From assembly GCF_024502345.1 (NCBI RefSeq), contig NZ_JALDNN010000001.1: a DNA stretch of 64,000 nt, one strand, 5' to 3'. The notes under the pieces are model-generated. The model was not told the origin of the DNA. It saw only the letters and a program-made list of their open reading frames with translations, and ran no database searches. Every line of letters starts with the position of its first letter. The stretch's first letter is position 1. The position numbers and the translations under genes were made by a program. Shown here in pieces: positions 25,412-37,197 of this stretch. This DNA is from Escherichia coli (lineage in GTDB: Bacteria > Pseudomonadota > Gammaproteobacteria > Enterobacterales > Enterobacteriaceae).

Positions 25412-25894
25412 ATGACAAACCTGACACTGGATGTAAACATTATCGATTTCCCATCAATCCCTGTGGCGATGTTGCCGCACCGCTGTAGCCCTGAGTTGCT
25501 CAACTACAGTGTGGCGAAATTTATCATGTGGCGTAAAGAGACGGGGCTTTCTCCTGTTAACCAAAGCCAGACTTTTGGCGTCGCCTGGGACGACCCTGCC
25601 ACCACCGCACCGGAAGCGTTTCGCTTTGATATCTGCGGCAGCGTTAGCGAACCGATTCCCGATAATCGTTATGGTGTGAGCAATGGTGAACTTACCGGTG
25701 GACGTTATGCCGTGGCCCGCCACGTTGGCGAGCTGGACGATATTTCACACACGATATGGGGCATTATTCGCCACTGGCTGCCTGCAAGCGGCGAGAAAAT
25801 GCGTAAAGCACCGATTCTGTTTCACTACACCAATCTTGCCGAAGGGGTGACAGAGCAGCGACTGGAAACGGATGTTTATGTGCCGTTGGCGTGA
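25412..25894 (+). CDS. ygiV: GyrI-like/AraC-effector-domain transcriptional regulator, 160 aa
   Basis: 160-aa ORF; recognised. Confidence 0.88.
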   Translation: MTNLTLDVNIIDFPSIPVAMLPHRCSPELLNYSVAKFIMWRKETGLSPVNQSQTFGVAWDDPATTAPEAFRFDICGSVSEPIPDNRYGVSNGELTGGRYAVARHVGELDDISHTIWGIIRHWLPASGEKMRKAPILFHYTNLAEGVTEQRLETDVYVPLA

Positions 25895-26439
25895 TGGGGA
25901 ATCTTTACCGGAGTGTGAGCCAAATCACTCGCGATAAGTTTGAGCGAACAATGCCACAGGCGTATTGTTGTTGGGCTTATAATTTCTCCGGTAAGGAATA
26001 CCATGTATACGCGAAATTTATTATCCGGTGCGCCGTAAGCCGTCTCGGGGGTATCCATGAGCAAGCCGCACTTATGGCAGGAGGCGCGGGGCACTGGTGG
26101 AGACACAGCTAAACTGGGCTGAACCGTATACTTACAGTCGACTACTTTGATGCTTTAGGCTTCCCTGGACTCGCATAACCTCAACTTCTCGAATCGCCCG
26201 GAGCGGACCCCCATGCCGAGTGGTGTGGCATGGGCGCAACCTTGTGCTGCCCTCTATGCCGATCAAGTCTACAGCAAAGAGTTGTATATCAAGGCACATT
26301 GATGCCTTTATCGCCGTCGGAGCACGTCCGGCGGCGCTATTCACGCTGATCTCCTGTGACTCGACGCGGCAGATAATGTAGTATCTCCGGCAATATTGCC
26401 CCTTTGAAGGCTGGCGAATAAGTTGAGGAATCAGAATTA

Positions 26440-28698
26440 ATGAGCGATATGGCAGAGCGCCTTGCGCTACATGAATTTACGGAAAACGCCTACTTAAACT
26501 ACTCCATGTACGTGATCATGGACCGTGCGTTGCCGTTTATTGGCGATGGTCTTAAACCTGTTCAGCGCCGCATTGTGTATGCGATGTCTGAACTGGGCCT
26601 GAATGCCAGCGCCAAATTTAAAAAATCGGCCCGTACCGTCGGTGACGTACTGGGTAAATACCATCCGCACGGCGATAGCGCCTGTTATGAAGCGATGGTC
26701 CTGATGGCGCAGCCGTTCTCTTACCGTTATCCGCTGGTTGATGGTCAGGGGAACTGGGGCGCGCCGGACGATCCGAAATCGTTCGCGGCAATGCGTTACA
26801 CCGAATCCCGGTTGTCGAAATATTCCGAGCTGCTATTGAGCGAGCTGGGGCAGGGGACGGCTGACTGGGTGCCAAACTTCGACGGCACTTTGCAGGAGCC
26901 GAAAATGCTACCCGCCCGTCTGCCAAACATTTTGCTTAACGGCACCACCGGTATTGCCGTCGGCATGGCGACCGATATTCCACCGCATAACCTGCGTGAA
27001 GTGGCTCAGGCGGCAATCGCATTAATCGACCAGCCGAAAACCACGCTCGATCAGCTGCTGGATATCGTGCAGGGGCCGGATTATCCGACTGAAGCGGAAA
27101 TTATCACTTCGCGCGCCGAGATCCGTAAAATCTACGAGAACGGACGTGGTTCAGTGCGTATGCGCGCGGTGTGGAAGAAAGAAGATGGCGCGGTGGTTAT
27201 CAGCGCATTGCCGCATCAGGTTTCAGGTGCGCGCGTACTGGAGCAAATTGCTGCGCAAATGCGCAACAAAAAGCTGCCGATGGTTGACGATCTGCGCGAT
27301 GAATCTGACCACGAGAACCCGACCCGTCTGGTGATTGTGCCGCGTTCCAACCGCGTGGATATGGATCAGGTGATGAACCACCTCTTCGCTACCACCGATC
27401 TGGAAAAGAGCTATCGCATTAACCTCAATATGATCGGTCTGGATGGTCGTCCGGCGGTGAAAAACCTGCTGGAAATCCTCTCCGAATGGCTGGTGTTCCG
27501 TCGCGATACCGTGCGCCGCCGACTGAACTATCGTCTGGAGAAAGTCCTCAAGCGCCTGCATATCCTGGAAGGTTTGCTGGTGGCGTTTCTCAACATCGAC
27601 GAAGTGATTGAGATCATTCGTAACGAAGATGAACCGAAACCGGCGCTGATGTCGCGGTTTGGCCTTACGGAAACCCAGGCGGAAGCGATCCTCGAACTGA
27701 AACTGCGTCATCTTGCCAAACTGGAAGATATGAAGATTCGCGGTGAGCAGAGTGAGCTGGAAAAAGAGCGCGACCAGTTGCAGGGCATTTTGGCTTCCGA
27801 GCGTAAAATGAATAACCTGCTGAAGAAAGAACTGCAGGCAGACGCGCAAGCCTACGGTGACGATCGTCGTTCGCCGTTGCAGGAACGCGAAGAAGCGAAA
27901 GCGATGAGCGAGCACGACATGCTGCCGTCTGAACCTGTCACCATTGTGCTGTCGCAGATGGGCTGGGTACGCAGCGCTAAAGGCCATGATATCGACGCGC
28001 CGGGCCTGAATTATAAAGCGGGTGATAGCTTCAAAGCGGCGGTGAAAGGTAAGAGCAACCAACCGGTAGTGTTTGTTGATTCCACCGGTCGTAGCTATGC
28101 CATCGACCCGATTACGCTGCCGTCGGCGCGTGGTCAGGGCGAACCACTCACCGGCAAATTAACGTTGCCGCCTGGGGCGACCGTTGACCATATGCTGATG
28201 GAAAGCGACGATCAGAAACTGCTGATGGCTTCCGATGCGGGTTACGGTTTCGTCTGCACCTTTAACGATCTGGTGGCGCGTAACCGTGCAGGTAAGGCTT
28301 TGATCACCTTACCGGAAAATGCCCATGTTATGCCGCCGGTGGTGATTGAAGATGCTTCCGATATGCTGCTGGCAATCACTCAGGCAGGCCGTATGTTGAT
28401 GTTCCCGGTAAGTGATCTGCCGCAGCTGTCGAAGGGCAAAGGCAACAAGATTATCAACATTCCATCGGCAGAAGCCGCGCGTGGAGAAGATGGTCTGGCG
28501 CAATTGTACGTTCTGCCGCCGCAAAGCACGCTGACCATTCATGTTGGGAAACGCAAAATTAAACTGCGCCCGGAAGAGTTACAGAAAGTCACTGGCGAAC
28601 GTGGACGCCGCGGTACGTTGATGCGCGGTTTGCAGCGTATCGATCGTGTTGAGATCGACTCTCCTCGCCGTGCCAGCAGCGGTGATAGCGAAGAGTAA
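26440..28698 (+). CDS. parC: DNA topoisomerase IV subunit A, 752 aa
   Basis: 752-aa ORF; catalytic-Tyr region and GyrA-like sequence; recognised. Confidence 0.95.
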
Positions 28699-29742: not shown

Positions 29743-31155
29743 ATGTCACTCAGTCGGCGTCAGTTCATTCAGGCATCGGGGATTGCACTTTGTGCAGGCG
29801 CTGTTCCCCTGAAGGCCAGCGCAGCCGGGCAACAGCAACCGCTACCCGTTCCGCCGCTACTTGAATCTCGCCGTGGGCAACCGCTGTTTATGACTGTACA
29901 ACGTGCGCACTGGTCATTTACGCCAGGGACACGCGCGTCGGTCTGGGGAATCAATGGTCGTTACCTGGGGCCGACTATCCGCGTCTGGAAGGGCGACGAT
30001 GTTAAGCTTATTTACAGCAACCGCCTGACAGAAAATGTCTCAATGACGGTGGCCGGGCTACAGGTACCAGGCCCGCTGATGGGCGGTCCGGCACGGATGA
30101 TGTCGCCAAACGCTGACTGGGCACCCGTACTGCCTATTCGCCAGAACGCAGCTACTCTGTGGTATCACGCCAATACTCCCAACCGCACGGCTCAGCAGGT
30201 CTATAACGGCCTTGCCGGAATGTGGCTGGTGGAAGATGAAGTCAGCAAGTCGCTGCCTATCCCCAACCATTATGGTGTGGATGATTTTCCGGTCATTATC
30301 CAGGATAAACGGCTGGATAACTTTGGTACGCCAGAATACAACGAACCGGGAAGCGGCGGCTTTGTTGGTGATACGCTGCTGGTTAACGGTGTACAAAGCC
30401 CGTACGTTGAAGTCTCGCGTGGCTGGGTGCGCTTGCGACTGCTGAACGCGTCGAACTCTCGTCGCTATCAACTACAGATGAGCGATGGTCGCCCGTTACA
30501 TGTGATTTCTGGCGATCAGGGATTCCTGCCTGCTCCTGTATCGGTGAAGCAACTTTCGCTGGCACCGGGCGAGCGCCGCGAGATTCTGGTGGATATGAGC
30601 AACGGCGATGAAGTGTCGATCACCTGTGGCGAAGCGGCGAGCATTGTTGATCGTATTCGCGGCTTCTTTGAGCCATCCAGTATTCTGGTTTCTACCCTGG
30701 TGCTAACGCTGCGCCCAACCGGCCTTCTGCCGCTGGTCACAGACAGTCTTCCGATGCGCTTGCTGCCAACTGAAATCATGGCTGGTTCGCCAATTCGCAG
30801 TCGCGATATCAGTCTGGGTGATGACCCGGGTATTAATGGACAGCTGTGGGACGTCAACCGTATTGATGTCACCGCTCAGCAAGGAACGTGGGAACGCTGG
30901 ACGGTACGCGCGGACGAGCCGCAAGCGTTCCATATTGAAGGCGTAATGTTCCAGATCCGTAACGTGAATGGCGCGATGCCGTTCCCGGAAGACAGAGGCT
31001 GGAAAGATACCGTTTGGGTTGACGGACAAGTGGAGCTGCTTGTTTATTTCGGTCAGCCTTCCTGGGCGCACTTCCCGTTCTACTTCAACAGTCAGACGCT
31101 GGAAATGGCGGACCGTGGCTCGATTGGGCAACTGTTGGTCAATCCGGTACCGTAA
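29743..31155 (+). CDS. ftsP: Cell division protein FtsP (SufI), multicopper-oxidase fold, 470 aa
   Basis: Tat signal (SRRQFIQASG); recognised. Confidence 0.93.
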   Translation: MSLSRRQFIQASGIALCAGAVPLKASAAGQQQPLPVPPLLESRRGQPLFMTVQRAHWSFTPGTRASVWGINGRYLGPTIRVWKGDDVKLIYSNRLTENVSMTVAGLQVPGPLMGGPARMMSPNADWAPVLPIRQNAATLWYHANTPNRTAQQVYNGLAGMWLVEDEVSKSLPIPNHYGVDDFPVIIQDKRLDNFGTPEYNEPGSGGFVGDTLLVNGVQSPYVEVSRGWVRLRLLNASNSRRYQLQMSDGRPLHVISGDQGFLPAPVSVKQLSLAPGERREILVDMSNGDEVSITCGEAASIVDRIRGFFEPSSILVSTLVLTLRPTGLLPLVTDSLPMRLLPTEIMAGSPIRSRDISLGDDPGINGQLWDVNRIDVTAQQGTWERWTVRADEPQAFHIEGVMFQIRNVNGAMPFPEDRGWKDTVWVDGQVELLVYFGQPSWAHFPFYFNSQTLEMADRGSIGQLLVNPVP

Positions 31156-31205
31156 TGGACCAATTCATCGCCCCACAAAGTGGTGGGGCGATACAAGGAT
31201 GAATC

Positions 31206-32642
31206 ATGGATGGCATGGGATGGATGATTATTTTGGTACTTCCCTTTCTTTGGATGGGGTATGGACTGGCGTTGTTAATCATAATGGGGTGCGCTTTTGA
31301 ATCTAAGGGGATTCGTCGCGTTCTGCTATGGGGTGTTGCACCCCAGTTTATTATTCTTTGTATTACGACCTTATTGCTTTACTGGATTAACTCTCGGTTA
31401 ATTTATGTTTTTGTCTTTTTTCAGCCAGTTTTATGCATCACCACGGCAATTTTTTTGTTTGCTGGTAAAAAAACACAATATTCCAGATTGCTGTTTACTC
31501 TGTCTCATGTGATTTTTCTCGCTGGAGTTTTATATCAGGGGTATAGGGAAAATCTGCAATACATAATTAATAATGACTGGAAGGAATATAAAATAACGCG
31601 TTTATTTGAGCAAGTGCAGGACAATGGGGCGCATGCGCTGAAAAACGATGTAACTTGTTCAGAATTAATGCAACTACTTACACTGGCAGCGGAACGTGAT
31701 GACGTCAAAGAAGAGACGTTACGTACTCTTATTGCAAAGAGAGTATCGCCATTTCTGACAATGTCAGATAATTGTACGGGTGAGAATTCAGTAGAGATTT
31801 ATTCTGTATATACTACGCCTTTTATGGCGGCTATTCAAAATCATAATATACATTCTGTCCGTTTTTTTAGTCAATTGCTTATGGGAAACTCACCAAAAGC
31901 AAAAAATAATCGTGACATTGTGCGCCGGGCAAACCCTTTGATCGAAGTGTATAAATATAGTCATGGTTCAAAAAAACAACGTAAATCAGGGTTAGAAATA
32001 AGTAAGCAATTTATGGCTATTATGCCAGAACTATTAACAGATGCCGTCTGGCGTGCCGTGCTCAATGTATATGATGCCGATGCAGCACGATGGTTCTGGC
32101 GTAAGCAACCACCAGAAAATCGGTTGTATCGCTTAAAGGCTATGGCATTAATACCACAAACGGATGCGCTGTTGGCGGATATTCGACAAACTCCAGAGGT
32201 ACTGAATATCTCGTCTGAGAGTGATCCGAATGAAGAGGAGTTTCTCCATTTCTTAATTAATGGGGGCGATATCACTGTAATACATGCACTGGTTGAAAAA
32301 GGAATAGTTAACTGGCAGCACCTTATGAACATTGAGGGGTTTGATAAGGACCCCCTAATTTGGGCTATTTCAAAGCTGGGAGAAACTGACAATGACCGGG
32401 AGGTTTTGGCATTAATTATTCATGATATTAATGCGCAAAACGCACTGCCGGAGGATCGCATTGCCAAATATTTAACGCGGACGGGATCAATGGGCGATAT
32501 TTTTTTAAAAGCGGGCTTACATTGTGATAAGTTATATTCGGCAATTGAGTCCGACAAAAAGCGAAATAATGGTATGTATAGTCAAAACGCCAGGGAAGAA
32601 GTGGATCGCGTATGTACTCCGGTGATGCTGCCAACTTACTGA
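31206..32642 (+). CDS. Hypothetical membrane-anchored protein, paralog A (~474 aa natively): 4 predicted N-terminal TM helices + C-terminal domain with ankyrin-like repeat motifs; last codons supplied by IS1
   Basis: ATG with SD AAGGA 6 nt upstream; AT-rich; hydrophobic segments at ~5-29, 39-60, 65-87, 94-111; motifs such as TTPFMAAIQNHNIHSVRFFSQLL resemble ankyrin consensus; not recognised as any K-12 gene. Confidence 0.7.
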   Translation: MDGMGWMIILVLPFLWMGYGLALLIIMGCAFESKGIRRVLLWGVAPQFIILCITTLLLYWINSRLIYVFVFFQPVLCITTAIFLFAGKKTQYSRLLFTLSHVIFLAGVLYQGYRENLQYIINNDWKEYKITRLFEQVQDNGAHALKNDVTCSELMQLLTLAAERDDVKEETLRTLIAKRVSPFLTMSDNCTGENSVEIYSVYTTPFMAAIQNHNIHSVRFFSQLLMGNSPKAKNNRDIVRRANPLIEVYKYSHGSKKQRKSGLEISKQFMAIMPELLTDAVWRAVLNVYDADAARWFWRKQPPENRLYRLKAMALIPQTDALLADIRQTPEVLNISSESDPNEEEFLHFLINGGDITVIHALVEKGIVNWQHLMNIEGFDKDPLIWAISKLGETDNDREVLALIIHDINAQNALPEDRIAKYLTRTGSMGDIFLKAGLHCDKLYSAIESDKKRNNGMYSQNAREEVDRVCTPVMLPTY

Positions 32643-32675
32643 TTTAGTGTATGATGGTGTTTTTGAGGTGCTCCA

Positions 32676-32951
32676 GTGGCTTCTGTTTCTATCAGCTGTC
32701 CCTCCTGTTCAGCTACTGACGGGGTGGTGCGTAACGGCAAAAGCACCGCCGGACATCAGCGCTATCTCTGCTCTCACTGCCGTAAAACATGGCAACTGCA
32801 GTTCACTTACACCGCTTCTCAACCCGGTACGCACCAGAAAATCATTGATATGGCCATGAATGGCGTTGGATGCCGGGCAACCGCCCGCATTATGGGCGTT
32901 GGCCTCAACACGATTTTCCGCCATTTAAAAAACTCAGGCCGCAGTCGGTAA
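32676..32951 (+). CDS. insA: IS1 InsA, 91 aa
   Basis: Recognised sequence [43 protein letters not shown]... Confidence 0.95.
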
Positions 32952-33373
32952 CCTCGCGCATACAGCCGGGCAGTGACGTCATCGTCTGCGCGGAAATGGA
33001 CGAACAGTGGGGATACGTCGGGGCTAAATCGCGCCAGCGCTGGCTGTTTTACGCGTATGACAGGCTCCGGAAGACGGTTGTTGCGCACGTATTCGGTGAA
33101 CGCACTATGGCGACGCTGGGGCGTCTTATGAGCCTGCTGTCACCCTTTGACGTGGTGATATGGATGACGGATGGCTGGCCGCTGTATGAATCCCGCCTGA
33201 AGGGAAAGCTGCACGTAATCAGCAAGCGATATACGCAGCGAATTGAGCGGCATAACCTGAATCTGAGGCAGCACCTGGCACGGCTGGGACGGAAGTCGCT
33301 GTCGTTCTCAAAATCGGTGGAGCTGCATGACAAAGTCATCGGGCATTATCTGAACATAAAACACTATCAATAA
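32870..33373 (+). CDS. insB: IS1 InsB' frame (InsAB' transposase made by -1 frameshift from insA)
   Basis: Overlapping -1 frame ORF inside IS1; recognised. Confidence 0.9.
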
Positions 33374-33451
33374 GTTGGAGTCATTACCTGTACTCCCGCA
33401 AAATAGGTGCAGTTTGGCGCGGTTAAGGAATAAAAAATAAAGGACTAAGCC

Positions 33452-34862
33452 ATGCGTAACGATGAACTTCTTCACCATTTTACTTTTACATTGCTTATGT
33501 TGGGTGGCTATCTACTGACTCTGTTCATCGTTATCGTCCTTTCCTTTTTTCGCCCACTATGCCGAAAAATGGTCTTCCATGGCATATTGCCACAATTGAT
33601 GATGTCGCTAATGGTGTCGCTCGGTTTATATTATCTGGAACGATACTCTATTGCGGTATGGGCCTTACTGGATTCTGTTTGGATATTATTCCCTTGCCTG
33701 TTATTGATCATAGTGATAAATAAATGGTCAAAACGTTCCCTTGTATGGATGAGTGCTTGTCATATTATGTGCTTGCTGTTGTTACTCTGGCAGGTGCAGC
33801 CCACGTTATTTAAAATCAGCTTTTATCACCAACAATTAAGTCACCTGGCTCAGGCAGAACAGGAAAATTTCCGCACACTGGATGCGATTCACGATACGCA
33901 ACGTCTGGAAGAGATGTTGCTGGTAGCGTTGAAATCCCCGGAAAATAAAACCTCTGAAAATGCCTTTCGCTATCTGTCAGGGCGAATCTCACCATTTGCT
34001 ATACCTTCCATTGGCGATCAAAAGTATTCTACCCGCACTTTTTTTACGATTGCGTTGGAACATTACAACGCCCGCGCCATCCGCGCGTTTAGCCGCTTTC
34101 TGCAAGGAAATTCCTCAAAAGCGCAGGAATATCGCGCGATTGTTCATCAAAACAATCCACTGCAGCAGATGTACCGGGGAATAAGTTTGCCAATTCGTTT
34201 TAGTGAAGAAGAGATCGCCCGCCACATTGTTGCCGCTCGCGAGATAAGCCTCACCTTACTGCCCCTGATGCCAGAATTATTAAGCGAAGAGGCGTATGCA
34301 AATGTCATTGATGCTTATGACAGCGCAACGCTGAAGGCTTTTTGGCAGATCCAGCTGCCCGCCCACGCCGGTTTTACGCCTGGAAGCGATGTCGGTAATT
34401 CCTATGACAGCGGCACTCGTTCAACAGGTGAGGGAGTCACCAAAGCGGCTTGAACTGAAAGATAAAAGTGGCAGGACAGTACTAACTTACATCGTGCGCT
34501 TTGGAAATATTGCCGCAGTACAGGCACTGATTGACGCTAATCTGATCGACTGGCAACGGCTTCGCCAATCGACAGAAAGGTCAACACCATTATTACTGGC
34601 CACCTGGCGACAAAAATACGACGATGATCATGTAATCTTCCCATTGATTTTAAAGGACATTCTGGCAAAAAATACACCACCGTCGGCAGAGGAAATAATG
34701 AACTGCATCAAGGATGGTATGACCGCAGATGATTTTTTATCTGCCGGAATGAGCAACACGCAATTCTGTTCTGCGATTGAACAAAGCCTCCAGGCGAAAA
34801 CGTCAGTATTACCGGCGAATCGATTACGCCATCTGCAATCCTCGCTGTGTGCAAAGCTGTAA
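33452..34862 (+). pseudogene. Paralog B of the membrane-anchored ankyrin-like protein, split by a frameshift near 34350-34370 into ORFs 33452..34453 and 34389..34862
   Basis: Good RBS (AAGGA-7nt-ATG); N-terminal TM helices; aligns with paralog A across the frame switch (A: FWRKQPPENRLYRLKAMALIP; B frame1 FWQIQLP, frame2 PPTPVLRLEAMSVIP). Confidence 0.6.
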
Positions 34863-34977: not shown

Positions 34978-37197
34978 ATGAGCTCTATCTCCCTGATCCA
35001 ACCGGATCGCGACCTGTTCTCCTGGCCGCAGTACTGGGCCGCCTGTTTTGGACCGGCACCGTTTTTGCCGATGTCTCGTGAAGAGATGGATCAACTTGGC
35101 TGGGATAGCTGCGACATCATTTTGGTTACTGGCGACGCGTATGTCGATCACCCAAGCTTCGGGATGGCGATTTGCGGTCGTATGCTGGAAGCGCAGGGCT
35201 TTCGCGTCGGGATCATCGCCCAGCCGGACTGGAGCAGCAAAGACGACTTTATGCGTCTGGGTAAACCGAATCTGTTTTTCGGTGTTACTGCTGGCAACAT
35301 GGATTCGATGATCAACCGTTATACCGCCGATCGCCGTTTACGTCATGACGATGCCTACACGCCGGATAACGTCGCGGGTAAGCGCCCGGATCGCGCCACA
35401 CTGGTTTATACCCAGCGTTGTAAAGAGGCGTGGAAAGATGTACCGGTGATCCTCGGCGGTATTGAGGCTAGTCTGCGCCGTACCGCACATTATGATTACT
35501 GGTCCGATACCGTGCGCCGTTCCGTGCTGGTGGATTCGAAAGCCGACATGCTGATGTTTGGTAACGGTGAGCGTCCGCTGGTGGAGGTGGCGCACCGTCT
35601 GGCGATGGGCGAGCCGATTAGTGAAATCCGCGATGTGCGTAATACCGCGATTATCGTGAAAGAGGCGCTGCCTGGCTGGAGCGGCGTGGATTCCACCCGT
35701 CTTGATACCCCTGGAAAAATCGACCCAATCCCGCATCCGTATGGTGAAGATTTGCCGTGCGCGGATAACAAACCGGTGGCACCGAAAAAGCAGGAAGCCA
35801 AAGCCGTAACCGTGCAGCCACCGCGCCCGAAACCGTGGGAAAAAACCTACGTGTTGCTGCCTTCTTTCGAGAAAGTGAAGGGCGATAAAGTGCTGTACGC
35901 CCATGCTTCGCGTATTCTGCACCACGAAACCAACCCAGGCTGTGCCCGCGCATTGATGCAAAAACACGGCGACCGCTATGTGTGGATCAACCCGCCTGCT
36001 ATTCCGCTTTCTACCGAAGAGATGGACAGCGTTTTTGCGCTGCCATACAAGCGCGTGCCACATCCGGCCTATGGCAATGCCCGTATTCCGGCTTACGAAA
36101 TGATCCGTTTTTCGGTCAACATTATGCGTGGCTGCTTTGGCGGCTGCTCTTTCTGTTCTATCACCGAGCACGAAGGGCGCATTATTCAGAGCCGTTCCGA
36201 AGATTCGATCATTAATGAGATCGAAGCGATCCGCGACACCGTTCCAGGTTTTACGGGCGTAATTTCCGATCTCGGTGGGCCAACTGCCAACATGTATATG
36301 TTGCGCTGCAAATCGCCACGCGCTGAACAAACTTGTCGCCGTTTGTCGTGCGTTTATCCGGATATTTGTCCGCACATGGACACTAACCACGAACCGACGA
36401 TCAACCTCTATCGCCGTGCGCGTGATCTGAAAGGCATTAAAAAAATCCTCATCGCCTCAGGCGTACGTTATGACATCGCCGTGGAAGATCCGCGCTATAT
36501 CAAAGAGTTGGCGACCCATCACGTCGGCGGTTATCTGAAGATTGCTCCGGAACATACCGAAGAAGGGCCGTTGTCGAAGATGATGAAGCCGGGCATGGGC
36601 AGCTATGACCGCTTTAAAGAGCTATTCGATACCTACTCGAAACAGGCAGGTAAAGAGCAGTATCTGATCCCGTATTTCATCTCTGCGCACCCCGGTACGC
36701 GTGATGAAGATATGGTGAATTTGGCGCTGTGGCTGAAAAAGCATCGTTTCCGTCTCGACCAGGTACAGAACTTCTACCCATCGCCGCTGGCGAACTCAAC
36801 CACCATGTATTACACCGGGAAAAACCCGCTGGCGAAGATTGGTTATAAGAGCGAAGACGTCTTCGTACCGAAGGGCGACAAGCAGCGTCGTTTGCATAAA
36901 GCGTTGTTGCGTTACCACGATCCGGCAAACTGGCCGTTAATCCGCCAGGCGCTGGAAGCGATGGGTAAAAAGCATCTGATTGGTAGCCGTCGCGATTGCT
37001 TAGTGCCTGCGCCAACCATTGAAGAGATGCGTGAAGCTCGTCGCCAGAACCGCAATACCCGTCCGGCGTTGACGAAACATACGCCGATGGCGACCCAGCG
37101 TCAGACGCCTGCTACGGCAAAAAAAGCGTCGTCTACGCAATCTCGTCCGGTGAATGCTGGTGCGAAGAAACGCCCTAAAGCGGCGGTTGGACGTTAA
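34978..37197 (+). CDS. ygiQ: Radical SAM protein YgiQ (UPF0313), 739 aa
   Basis: CxxxCxxC motif (CFGGCSFC); basic low-complexity C-terminal tail; recognised. Confidence 0.9.

What the first reader, a model, noticed from the sequence alone, without database searches (positions are those of the whole stretch)
34330..34400. Frameshift splits paralog B into two overlapping ORFs
Homology to paralog A continues across a frame change: frame 1 matches up to FWQIQLP (A: FWRKQPP), and frame 2 matches from PPTPVLRLEAMSVIP onward (A: PPENRLYRLKAMALIP). The switch lies in the C-rich run CTGCCCGCCCACGCC (about 34354-34368). This is either pseudogenisation of the second paralog, a sequencing or assembly indel, or (less likely) a frameshift used to make two products.
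Basis: seen in the sequence. Interest (0 to 1): 0.45.

Follow-up and report, generated by a model that had tools for sequence, protein, structure and literature searches.

The report
One-base insertion breaks accessory ankyrin gene
A single extra C has split an uncharacterised E. coli membrane/ankyrin-repeat gene into two overlapping reading frames; it is a real mutation seen in many independent assemblies, and an ordinary case of decay of a dispensable gene rather than a sequencing error or a recoding signal.

Summary
The window is E. coli chromosome: plsC, ftsP, a two-gene islet, then ygiQ. Paralog B (33452-34862) matches paralog A in frame 1 up to FWQIQLP and in frame 2 from PPTPVLRLEAM.

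The cause is one extra C. Intact alleles read CTGCCGCCC; the window reads CTGCCCGCCC (CCC at 34358-34360, codon 303). Removing one C restores a 469-aa ORF. That is the length in all nine complete E. coli genomes with full-length B, and in orthologues down to 72% identity.

It is not a sequencing error. The exact 333-aa truncated product is recorded on 101 public contigs. All 10 loci I fetched, from different samples and assemblers, carry the same +C on one haplotype. Eight of them lack the IS1 that sits in the last codons of paralog A in the window, so the frameshift is older than the IS1 insertion.

Nothing supports programmed frameshifting. The shift is not conserved, the next codon is a common GCC, and there is no upstream Shine-Dalgarno-like stimulator or RNA structure. 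The family carries other independent lesions: a 519-bp 5' deletion in E. coli, a G6-to-G5 frameshift in E. albertii and a Q131 stop in Salmonella.

Verdict: lineage-specific pseudogenisation. Low interest.

The parts
29743..31155 (+). ftsP (sufI), the conserved left flank of the islet
   Evidence: 470-aa ORF. Annotated as ftsP in the matching RefSeq loci. In K-12, ftsP lies 110 bp from ygiQ with no islet between them.
31206..32642 (+). Paralog A: membrane-anchored helical-repeat protein. Native codons run to 32620; the last 6 codons and the stop come from the IS1 left end (CTPAK* becomes CTPVMLPTY*).
   Evidence: The ORF is 478 aa here against 474 aa in relatives. The exact 478-aa fusion product is recorded on 7 public contigs.
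32621..33388 (+). IS1 element (768 bp) inserted in the 3' end of paralog A. It is flanked by an 8-bp target duplication, TGTACTCC, at 32613-32620 and 33389-33396.
   Evidence: Terminal repeats GGTGATGCTGCC and GGAGTCATTACC, and the duplicated flank. InsA ORF at 32676-32951. Megablast hits are annotated as IS1-like transposase. IS1 is absent from 8 of the 10 frameshift-bearing loci.
33452..34453 (+). Paralog B, 5' ORF (333 aa). Native residues 1-303 comprise the hydrophobic N-terminus and the first half of the helical-repeat domain. They are followed by a 30-aa out-of-frame tail (34361-34450) and TGA.
   Evidence: The exact product is on 101 public contigs. Hydrophobic segments lie within residues 9-115. 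AF2 model of the intact form.
34358..34360 (+). Frameshift site: a CCC run containing one extra C relative to intact alleles (CTGCCGCCC becomes CTGCCCGCCC), at codon 303
   Evidence: DNA alignment with LD91-1, PT62 and GF4-3. The same site is present in L006-L015.
34362..34862 (+). Paralog B, 3' remnant in the +1 frame (residues 304-469 and the stop). It contains the only recognisable ankyrin repeats. The first in-frame ATGs are at 34389 and 34404, and neither has a convincing Shine-Dalgarno sequence.
   Evidence: Sub-threshold Ank_2 match at residues 331-387. Profile positions ~320-400 match many multi-repeat proteins.
34978..37197 (+). ygiQ (radical SAM), the conserved right flank of the islet
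   Evidence: 739-aa ORF. Annotated as ygiQ in the matching loci.

Best explanation
Paralog B is a lineage-specific frameshift pseudogene. Its ancestor was one 469-aa gene for a membrane-anchored alpha-helical repeat (ankyrin-like) protein. It was the second gene of a two-gene accessory islet between ftsP and ygiQ.

In one E. coli lineage a replication error added one C to a CC dinucleotide at codon 303. Translation now runs 30 codons out of frame and stops at 34451-34453. The product, if made and stable, keeps the N-terminal transmembrane region and about half of the helical-repeat domain. It lacks the whole ankyrin-repeat C-terminal third.

Later, in a sub-lineage that includes this window, IS1 inserted 63 bp upstream of B, in the last codons of paralog A. 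This probably also cut B off from transcription coming from A.

Shown: the lesion, its polarity (an insertion), that it is real, and that it came before IS1. Inferred: loss of function, instability of the truncated product, and IS1 polarity.
For: - **Single lesion.** One extra C is the only length difference from intact alleles of 1410 nt in three relatives. All nine complete E. coli genomes with full-length B span exactly 1410 nt.
- **Intact form is ancestral.** Orthologues at 72-89% identity, including E. albertii and Escherichia sp. MOD1-EC7003, are all 469 aa. LPPTPVLRLEAMSVIP is conserved, and P303, R309, L310, A312, I316, P317 and T319 are invariant even in paralog A. About 20 more distant full-length family clusters are 466-480 aa.
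- **The mutation is real.** The exact 333-aa product is on 101 contigs. All 10 fetched loci, from SPAdes, MEGAHIT, NCBI and Logan assemblies, carry the same +C. They also share the SNPs that separate this haplotype from the nearest intact allele, LD91-1.
- **Order of events.** Eight of the 10 frameshift loci have intact A and no IS1. The two loci that start inside the IS1 right end are identical to the window, including the extra SNP at 34661, which is M403I in the dead frame.
- **The family decays repeatedly at different places.** There is a 519-bp deletion of B's start in four complete E. coli genomes. E. albertii has a G6-to-G5 frameshift near codon 18. Salmonella has Q131*.
- **Most strains lack the gene.** The islet is present in only 13 of 5426 complete E. 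coli genomes and absent from K-12.
- **The lost part is structured.** The frameshift falls in the confidently modelled solenoid (pLDDT 80-94, residues ~125-469), just before the ankyrin-like repeats.
Against: - The downstream frame is still fully open, with only one substitution (M403I), so there is no secondary decay to prove loss of function. However, the carriers are so similar (99.07-100% identity in the flanks) that an open frame is expected by chance.
- There are no expression or protein data.
- CCC-G is a sequence type on which tRNA-Pro can slip +1 (PMC4519876). Such a slip here would recreate the exact wild-type LPPTP, so some full-length protein could still be made.
Confidence: 0.9

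Rival explanations
1. Sequencing or assembly error: the genome really has CC at this site and one continuous 469-aa gene.
For: The lesion is a one-base change in the length of a short homopolymer, which is the commonest kind of assembly error. None of the 5426 complete RefSeq E. coli genomes searched carries it.
Against: The exact truncated product occurs on 101 contigs from NCBI, ENA, JGI and Logan. All 10 fetched loci, from different samples and assemblers, have the same CCC. The allele is tied to one SNP haplotype and is nested with the IS1 insertion. A 3-base run is not error-prone for short reads.
Confidence: 0.02
2. Recoding: ribosomes shift +1 at CCC-G, where peptidyl-tRNA-Pro re-pairs from CCC to CCG, and make full-length protein. 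This could be a programmed device or a useful leak.
For: A +1 slip at exactly this codon restores the wild-type sequence LPPTP (sequence). The rescue window between the frame-2 upstream stop (34332-34334) and the frame-1 stop (34451-34453) is open. CC[C/U]-N sequences are known slippery sites for tRNA-Pro, with up to about 1% shifting for CCC-C at codon 2 (PMC4519876).
Against: - The frameshift is absent from every orthologue and from paralog A. It is therefore a recent mutation, not a conserved signal.
- The A-site codon is a common GCC, not a stop or a rare codon.
- There is no SD-like sequence upstream.
- The local RNA fold is no better than shuffled sequence (z = -0.36).
- Non-programmed +1 shifting is normally below 0.003% per codon (PMC4519876). 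CCC is also too short for transcriptional slippage or phase variation.
Confidence: 0.04
3. Functional split gene: the 333-aa membrane part and a separately initiated C-terminal ankyrin fragment of 152-157 aa (ATG 34389 or 34404) are both made and work together or apart.
For: The downstream frame is intact in all 10 carrier loci. Some gene callers predict a 152-aa ORF there. In-frame ATGs exist at 34389 and 34404.
Against: Neither ATG has a properly spaced Shine-Dalgarno sequence: GGAAG lies only 2 nt from 34389, and there is none before 34404. The break falls inside a continuous, confidently modelled helical solenoid rather than between domains. Other lineages break the gene at quite different points, namely codons ~18, 131 and a 5' deletion, which looks like random decay. 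The carriers are too similar for the open frame to count as evidence.
Confidence: 0.04

Closest known systems
Ordinary lineage-specific frameshift pseudogenes in E. coli/Shigella accessory genes (what NCBI PGAP labels 'frameshifted')
   Same: A single-base indel in a short homopolymer, intact orthologues at the same locus, an IS element next door, and a gene that most strains lack.
   Different: Nothing essential. The gene affected has no known function, and the allele is carried by many sampled isolates and metagenomes rather than one strain.
Programmed +1 ribosomal frameshifting of prfB (RF2)
   Same: Two overlapping frames that together encode one protein homologous to single-ORF relatives. 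A +1 shift would be needed to join them.
   Different: In prfB the shift is conserved across bacteria, occurs at CUU-UGA with an in-frame stop in the A site, and has an upstream SD-like stimulator. Here the shift is confined to one lineage and none of these elements is present.
Spontaneous +1 slippage of tRNA-Pro on CC[C/U]-N (the m1G37/EF-P literature, e.g. PMC4519876)
   Same: The mutated site is CCC-G, and a slip there restores the native protein sequence.
   Different: The reported high rates apply to CCC-C next to the start codon or to trmD/efp-deficient cells. This site is at codon 303 and is followed by a common codon. No measurement exists for it.
Ankyrin-repeat proteins (Pfam Ank_2, PF12796)
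   Same: Residues ~320-400 of A and B resemble ankyrin repeats in sequence, and the model is an alpha-helical solenoid.
   Different: Scores are below the Pfam threshold (20-23 bits against 27.3). The N-terminal multi-helix hydrophobic region and the first half of the solenoid match no described family. The full-length family is confined to Enterobacteriaceae.

Membership tests
Frameshift pseudogene | Intact single-ORF orthologues exist at the same chromosomal position | tested here: met
   Nine complete E. coli genomes have a 1410-nt B between A and ygiQ. Orthologues of 469 aa occur in other Escherichia.
Frameshift pseudogene | The disruption is explained by a small indel relative to those orthologues | tested here: met
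   One extra C at 34358-34360 is the only indel across the 1411 nt. Removing it gives 469 aa.
Frameshift pseudogene | The lesion is real, not an assembly artefact | tested here: met
   101 contigs carry the exact product. All 10 independent loci carry the +C.
Frameshift pseudogene | Loss of the functional product | not testable with these tools
   This needs expression and phenotype data. It is inferred from loss of the conserved residues 304-469.
Programmed +1 ribosomal frameshift (prfB type) | The frameshift is conserved among orthologues | tested here: not met
   All orthologues, and paralog A, are single ORFs.
Programmed +1 ribosomal frameshift (prfB type) | A slow A-site codon (stop or rare) after the slippery codon | tested here: not met
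   The A-site codon is GCC. That GCC is a common Ala codon is my own knowledge of E. coli codon usage.
Programmed +1 ribosomal frameshift (prfB type) | An upstream SD-like stimulator or a nearby stimulatory RNA structure | tested here: not met
   The upstream sequence GGCAGAUCCAGCUG has no GGAGG-like element. The fold of 34340-34460 has z = -0.36.
Phase-variable simple-sequence contingency locus | A long homopolymer or short tandem repeat whose length varies among close relatives | tested here: not met
   The run is 2 or 3 C only. Every carrier has CCC and every other allele has CC, in step with haplotype.
IS1 insertion sequence (the neighbouring element) | A 768-bp element with terminal inverted repeats, InsA/InsB ORFs and an 8-9 bp target duplication | tested here: met
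   Located at 32621-32388+1000, i.e. 32621-33388 (768 bp), with the 8-bp duplication TGTACTCC. InsA ORF. Hits annotated as IS1-like transposase.
Ankyrin repeat proteins (Pfam Ank_2) | Score at or above the Pfam gathering threshold | tested here: not met
   A scores 23.0 bits and B 20.2 bits, against a cut-off of 27.3.
Ankyrin repeat proteins (Pfam Ank_2) | Repeat-level similarity to bona fide ankyrin-repeat proteins, and a helical-repeat fold | tested here: inconclusive
   The family profile hits many long proteins with 4-31 repeated stretches, all at profile positions ~320-400. PDB sequence hits to designed ankyrin repeats are weak, E = 0.02. Foldseek gives only weak ARM/ANK solenoid matches, best E = 0.011.

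The most novel reading that the evidence does not exclude
The +C allele may not be fully dead. Because the insertion created CCC-G, spontaneous +1 slippage of tRNA-Pro would regenerate the exact wild-type 469-aa protein at a low level. That would turn the gene into a strongly down-tuned allele, whose output would depend on tRNA m1G37/EF-P status, rather than a null. The allele's spread (101 contigs on flanks that differ slightly) would then reflect tolerance of, or selection for, low dosage of a membrane ankyrin protein.
Probability: 0.05. Interest if true: 0.35.

Novelty: new member of a known kind. Interest (0 to 1): 0.12.

Why it matters
It matters little beyond annotation. The two ORFs at 33452-34453 and 34389-34862 should be annotated as one frameshifted pseudogene, not as two hypothetical proteins. 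The +C and the later IS1 insertion are usable lineage markers.

A side result is of mild interest. There is a small, uncharacterised, Enterobacteriaceae-restricted family of membrane-anchored ankyrin-like proteins. In E. coli and E. albertii it sits next to ftsP, and it has been inactivated independently at least four times. That pattern suggests a niche-specific function that is often dispensable or costly.

Tried and rejected
- **Sequencing error:** rejected from exact-product look-ups and 10 independent loci.
- **Programmed +1 frameshift:** I looked for conservation of the shift, a slow A-site codon, an SD-like stimulator and RNA structure. None was found.
- **Phase variation or transcriptional slippage:** the run is only 3 C and is fixed within the haplotype.
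- **Function of the family:**
  - Pfam and NCBIfam gave only sub-threshold ankyrin matches and noise (FlaF, ComEA-like).
  - PADLOC gave nothing.
  - PDB sequence search and Foldseek gave only generic helical-repeat matches.
  - No paper in the library mentions both ygiQ and ankyrin.
- **Relaxed selection downstream of the frameshift:** there is no power. Only one substitution (M403I) separates carriers, and only six separate the window from the nearest intact allele.
- **Independent restart of the C-terminal part:** there is no convincing ribosome-binding site.
- **Promoter and terminator scan of the islet:** no more hits than in shuffled sequence.

Full report
**Context.** The window is E. 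coli chromosome. The order around the finding is plsC, ftsP (29743-31155), paralog A (31206-32642), IS1 (32621-33388), paralog B (33452-34862) and ygiQ (34978-37197). In K-12, ftsP and ygiQ are separated by only 110 bp. A and B therefore form an accessory islet of about 3 kb. B is present in only 13 of 5426 complete E. coli genomes.

**Checking the observation.** Paralog A aligns to frame 1 of B up to FWQIQLP (25% identity, E = 6e-24). It aligns to frame 2 from PPTPVLRLEAMSVIP onward (28% identity, E = 9e-21). The two alignments abut at the C-rich run, which lies at 34355-34369. Frame 1 stops at TGA 34451-34453, and frame 2 is open from 34335.

**The lesion.** I aligned B with the intact alleles of strains LD91-1, PT62 and GF4-3.
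- The only length difference is one extra C. CTGCCGCCC in the relatives is CTGCCCGCCC in the window, with the CCC at 34358-34360, codon 303.
- Deleting one C gives a 469-aa ORF.
- All nine complete genomes with full-length B span exactly 1410 nt.
- Orthologues down to 72% identity (E. albertii, Escherichia sp.) are 469 aa.
- An exhaustive profile search finds about 20 more distant full-length clusters of 466-480 aa. The named ones are from Salmonella, Pseudocitrobacter, Atlantibacter, Enterobacter cancerogenus and Superficieibacter.
- The segment LPPTPVLRLEAMSVIP is conserved, with P303, R309, L310, A312, I316, P317 and T319 invariant even in paralog A.

The single ORF is therefore ancestral, and the window carries a derived +1-base insertion.

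**Real or artefact.** The evidence points to a real mutation.
- The exact 333-aa truncated product is in the public collection on 101 contigs.
- I fetched 10 loci from independent ENA metagenome assemblies (SPAdes and MEGAHIT contig names), NCBI genomes and a Logan assembly. All 10 have the same CCC.
- They share the SNPs that distinguish this haplotype from the closest intact allele, LD91-1.
- Their flanks are 99.07-100% identical to the window.

A recurrent artefact at a 3-base run, confined to one haplotype and found across different assemblers, is not credible.

**Order of events.**
- Eight of the 10 carriers have an intact 474-aa paralog A and no IS1.
- The other two are contigs that begin inside the IS1 right end. 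They are identical to the window, including a further substitution at 34661 (M403I in the dead frame).
- In the window, IS1 (768 bp, 8-bp duplication TGTACTCC) sits in the last codons of A. It changes the C-terminus from CTPAK* to CTPVMLPTY*.
- The history is therefore: intact gene, then +C, then IS1 and M403I.
- In intact alleles A and B are 45 bp apart, which suggests one operon. From general knowledge that IS1 insertions are strongly polar, I infer that IS1 further silences B in this strain. This was not tested.

**What is lost.**
- Both paralogs have a hydrophobic N-terminus, with about four helices within residues ~4-115.
- An AlphaFold model of intact B has mean pLDDT 78. The transmembrane region is of low confidence, and residues ~125-469 form an alpha-helical solenoid with pLDDT 80-94.
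- Pfam gives only sub-threshold Ank_2 matches at B 331-387 and A 338-411.
- The family profile hits many long multi-repeat proteins at positions ~320-400.
- Foldseek against the PDB gives only weak ARM/ANK repeat matches.
- The frameshift at codon 303 cuts the solenoid in the middle and removes all the ankyrin-like repeats. It adds a 30-residue out-of-frame tail.
- NCBIfam, PADLOC and the literature search gave no function.

**Rivals.**
- *Programmed +1 frameshifting.* This fails every criterion I could test: the shift is not conserved, the A-site codon is GCC, there is no SD-like stimulator, and the local fold has z = -0.36.
- *Leaky decoding.* One caveat is worth recording. The mutation created CCC-G, a context on which tRNA-Pro can slip +1, and a slip there gives exactly the wild-type LPPTP. 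Reported rates are up to about 1% for CCC-C at codon 2, and normally below 0.003% (PMC4519876). I give a meaningful leak about 5%.
- *Functional split gene.* The in-frame ATGs at 34389 and 34404 lack proper ribosome-binding sites, and the break lies within a continuous fold.

**Pattern in the family.** Family members carry independent inactivating lesions at unrelated positions.
- Four complete E. coli genomes have a 519-bp deletion that removes B's ribosome-binding site, start and first ~169 codons.
- E. albertii has a G6-to-G5 frameshift near codon 18, at the same ftsP-adjacent locus.
- A Salmonella enterica relative has a Q131 stop.

This is the signature of repeated decay of a dispensable accessory gene, not of a regulated site.

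**Verdict.** The feature is a real, lineage-specific, one-base-insertion pseudogene of an uncharacterised membrane-anchored ankyrin-like gene, later joined by an IS1 insertion next door. The finding is ordinary, and I score interest at 0.12.

Noticed in passing
window 32613-33396: IS1 (32621-33388, 768 bp, 8-bp duplication TGTACTCC) is inserted in the last codons of paralog A. It replaces the C-terminal AK* with VMLPTY*, encoded by the IS1 left end. The insertion is younger than the frameshift in B, because 8 of 10 frameshift carriers lack it.
   Followed up: yes
L004/L005 (E. coli 2013C-4282, MFDS1022581); deletion = L002 3064-3582: A different E. coli lineage has a 519-bp deletion that removes B's ribosome-binding site, start codon and first ~169 codons. 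Going by contig counts, the 268-, 230- and 224-aa gene calls for this allele are the commonest form of B in public data.
   Followed up: partly
L017 2651-2704 (E. albertii); L019 2923-2925 (Salmonella enterica): There are independent lesions in family members. E. albertii B has a G6-to-G5 frameshift near codon 18, and paralog A there is reduced to a remnant. A Salmonella relative has a Q131 stop that splits it into 130-aa and 310-aa calls.
   Followed up: partly
paralog B codons 1-302 (window 33452-34357), compared with L002 and L003: Intact alleles differ from each other by many more amino-acid-changing than silent substitutions in the N-terminal part. The counts are 15 N / 5 S for window against PT62, and 13 N / 4 S for LD91-1 against PT62, clustered in the hydrophobic region around residues 34-55. 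This could be diversifying selection or a recombination patch.
   Followed up: no
window 25894-26440: Only ~550 bp with no ORF of 80 aa or more separates ygiV from parC. From memory of the K-12 gene order, mqsR-mqsA and ygiS lie there, so this strain appears to lack the MqsRA toxin-antitoxin pair and ygiS.
   Followed up: no
window 31156-31205 and L016 5148-5257: The short spacer after ftsP holds a different GC-rich hairpin in islet-bearing strains (ATCGCCCCAC..GTGGGGCGAT) than in K-12 (ACTCGCCC..GGGCGAGT). The islet replaces about 30 bp of the K-12 spacer rather than simply adding to it.
   Followed up: partly
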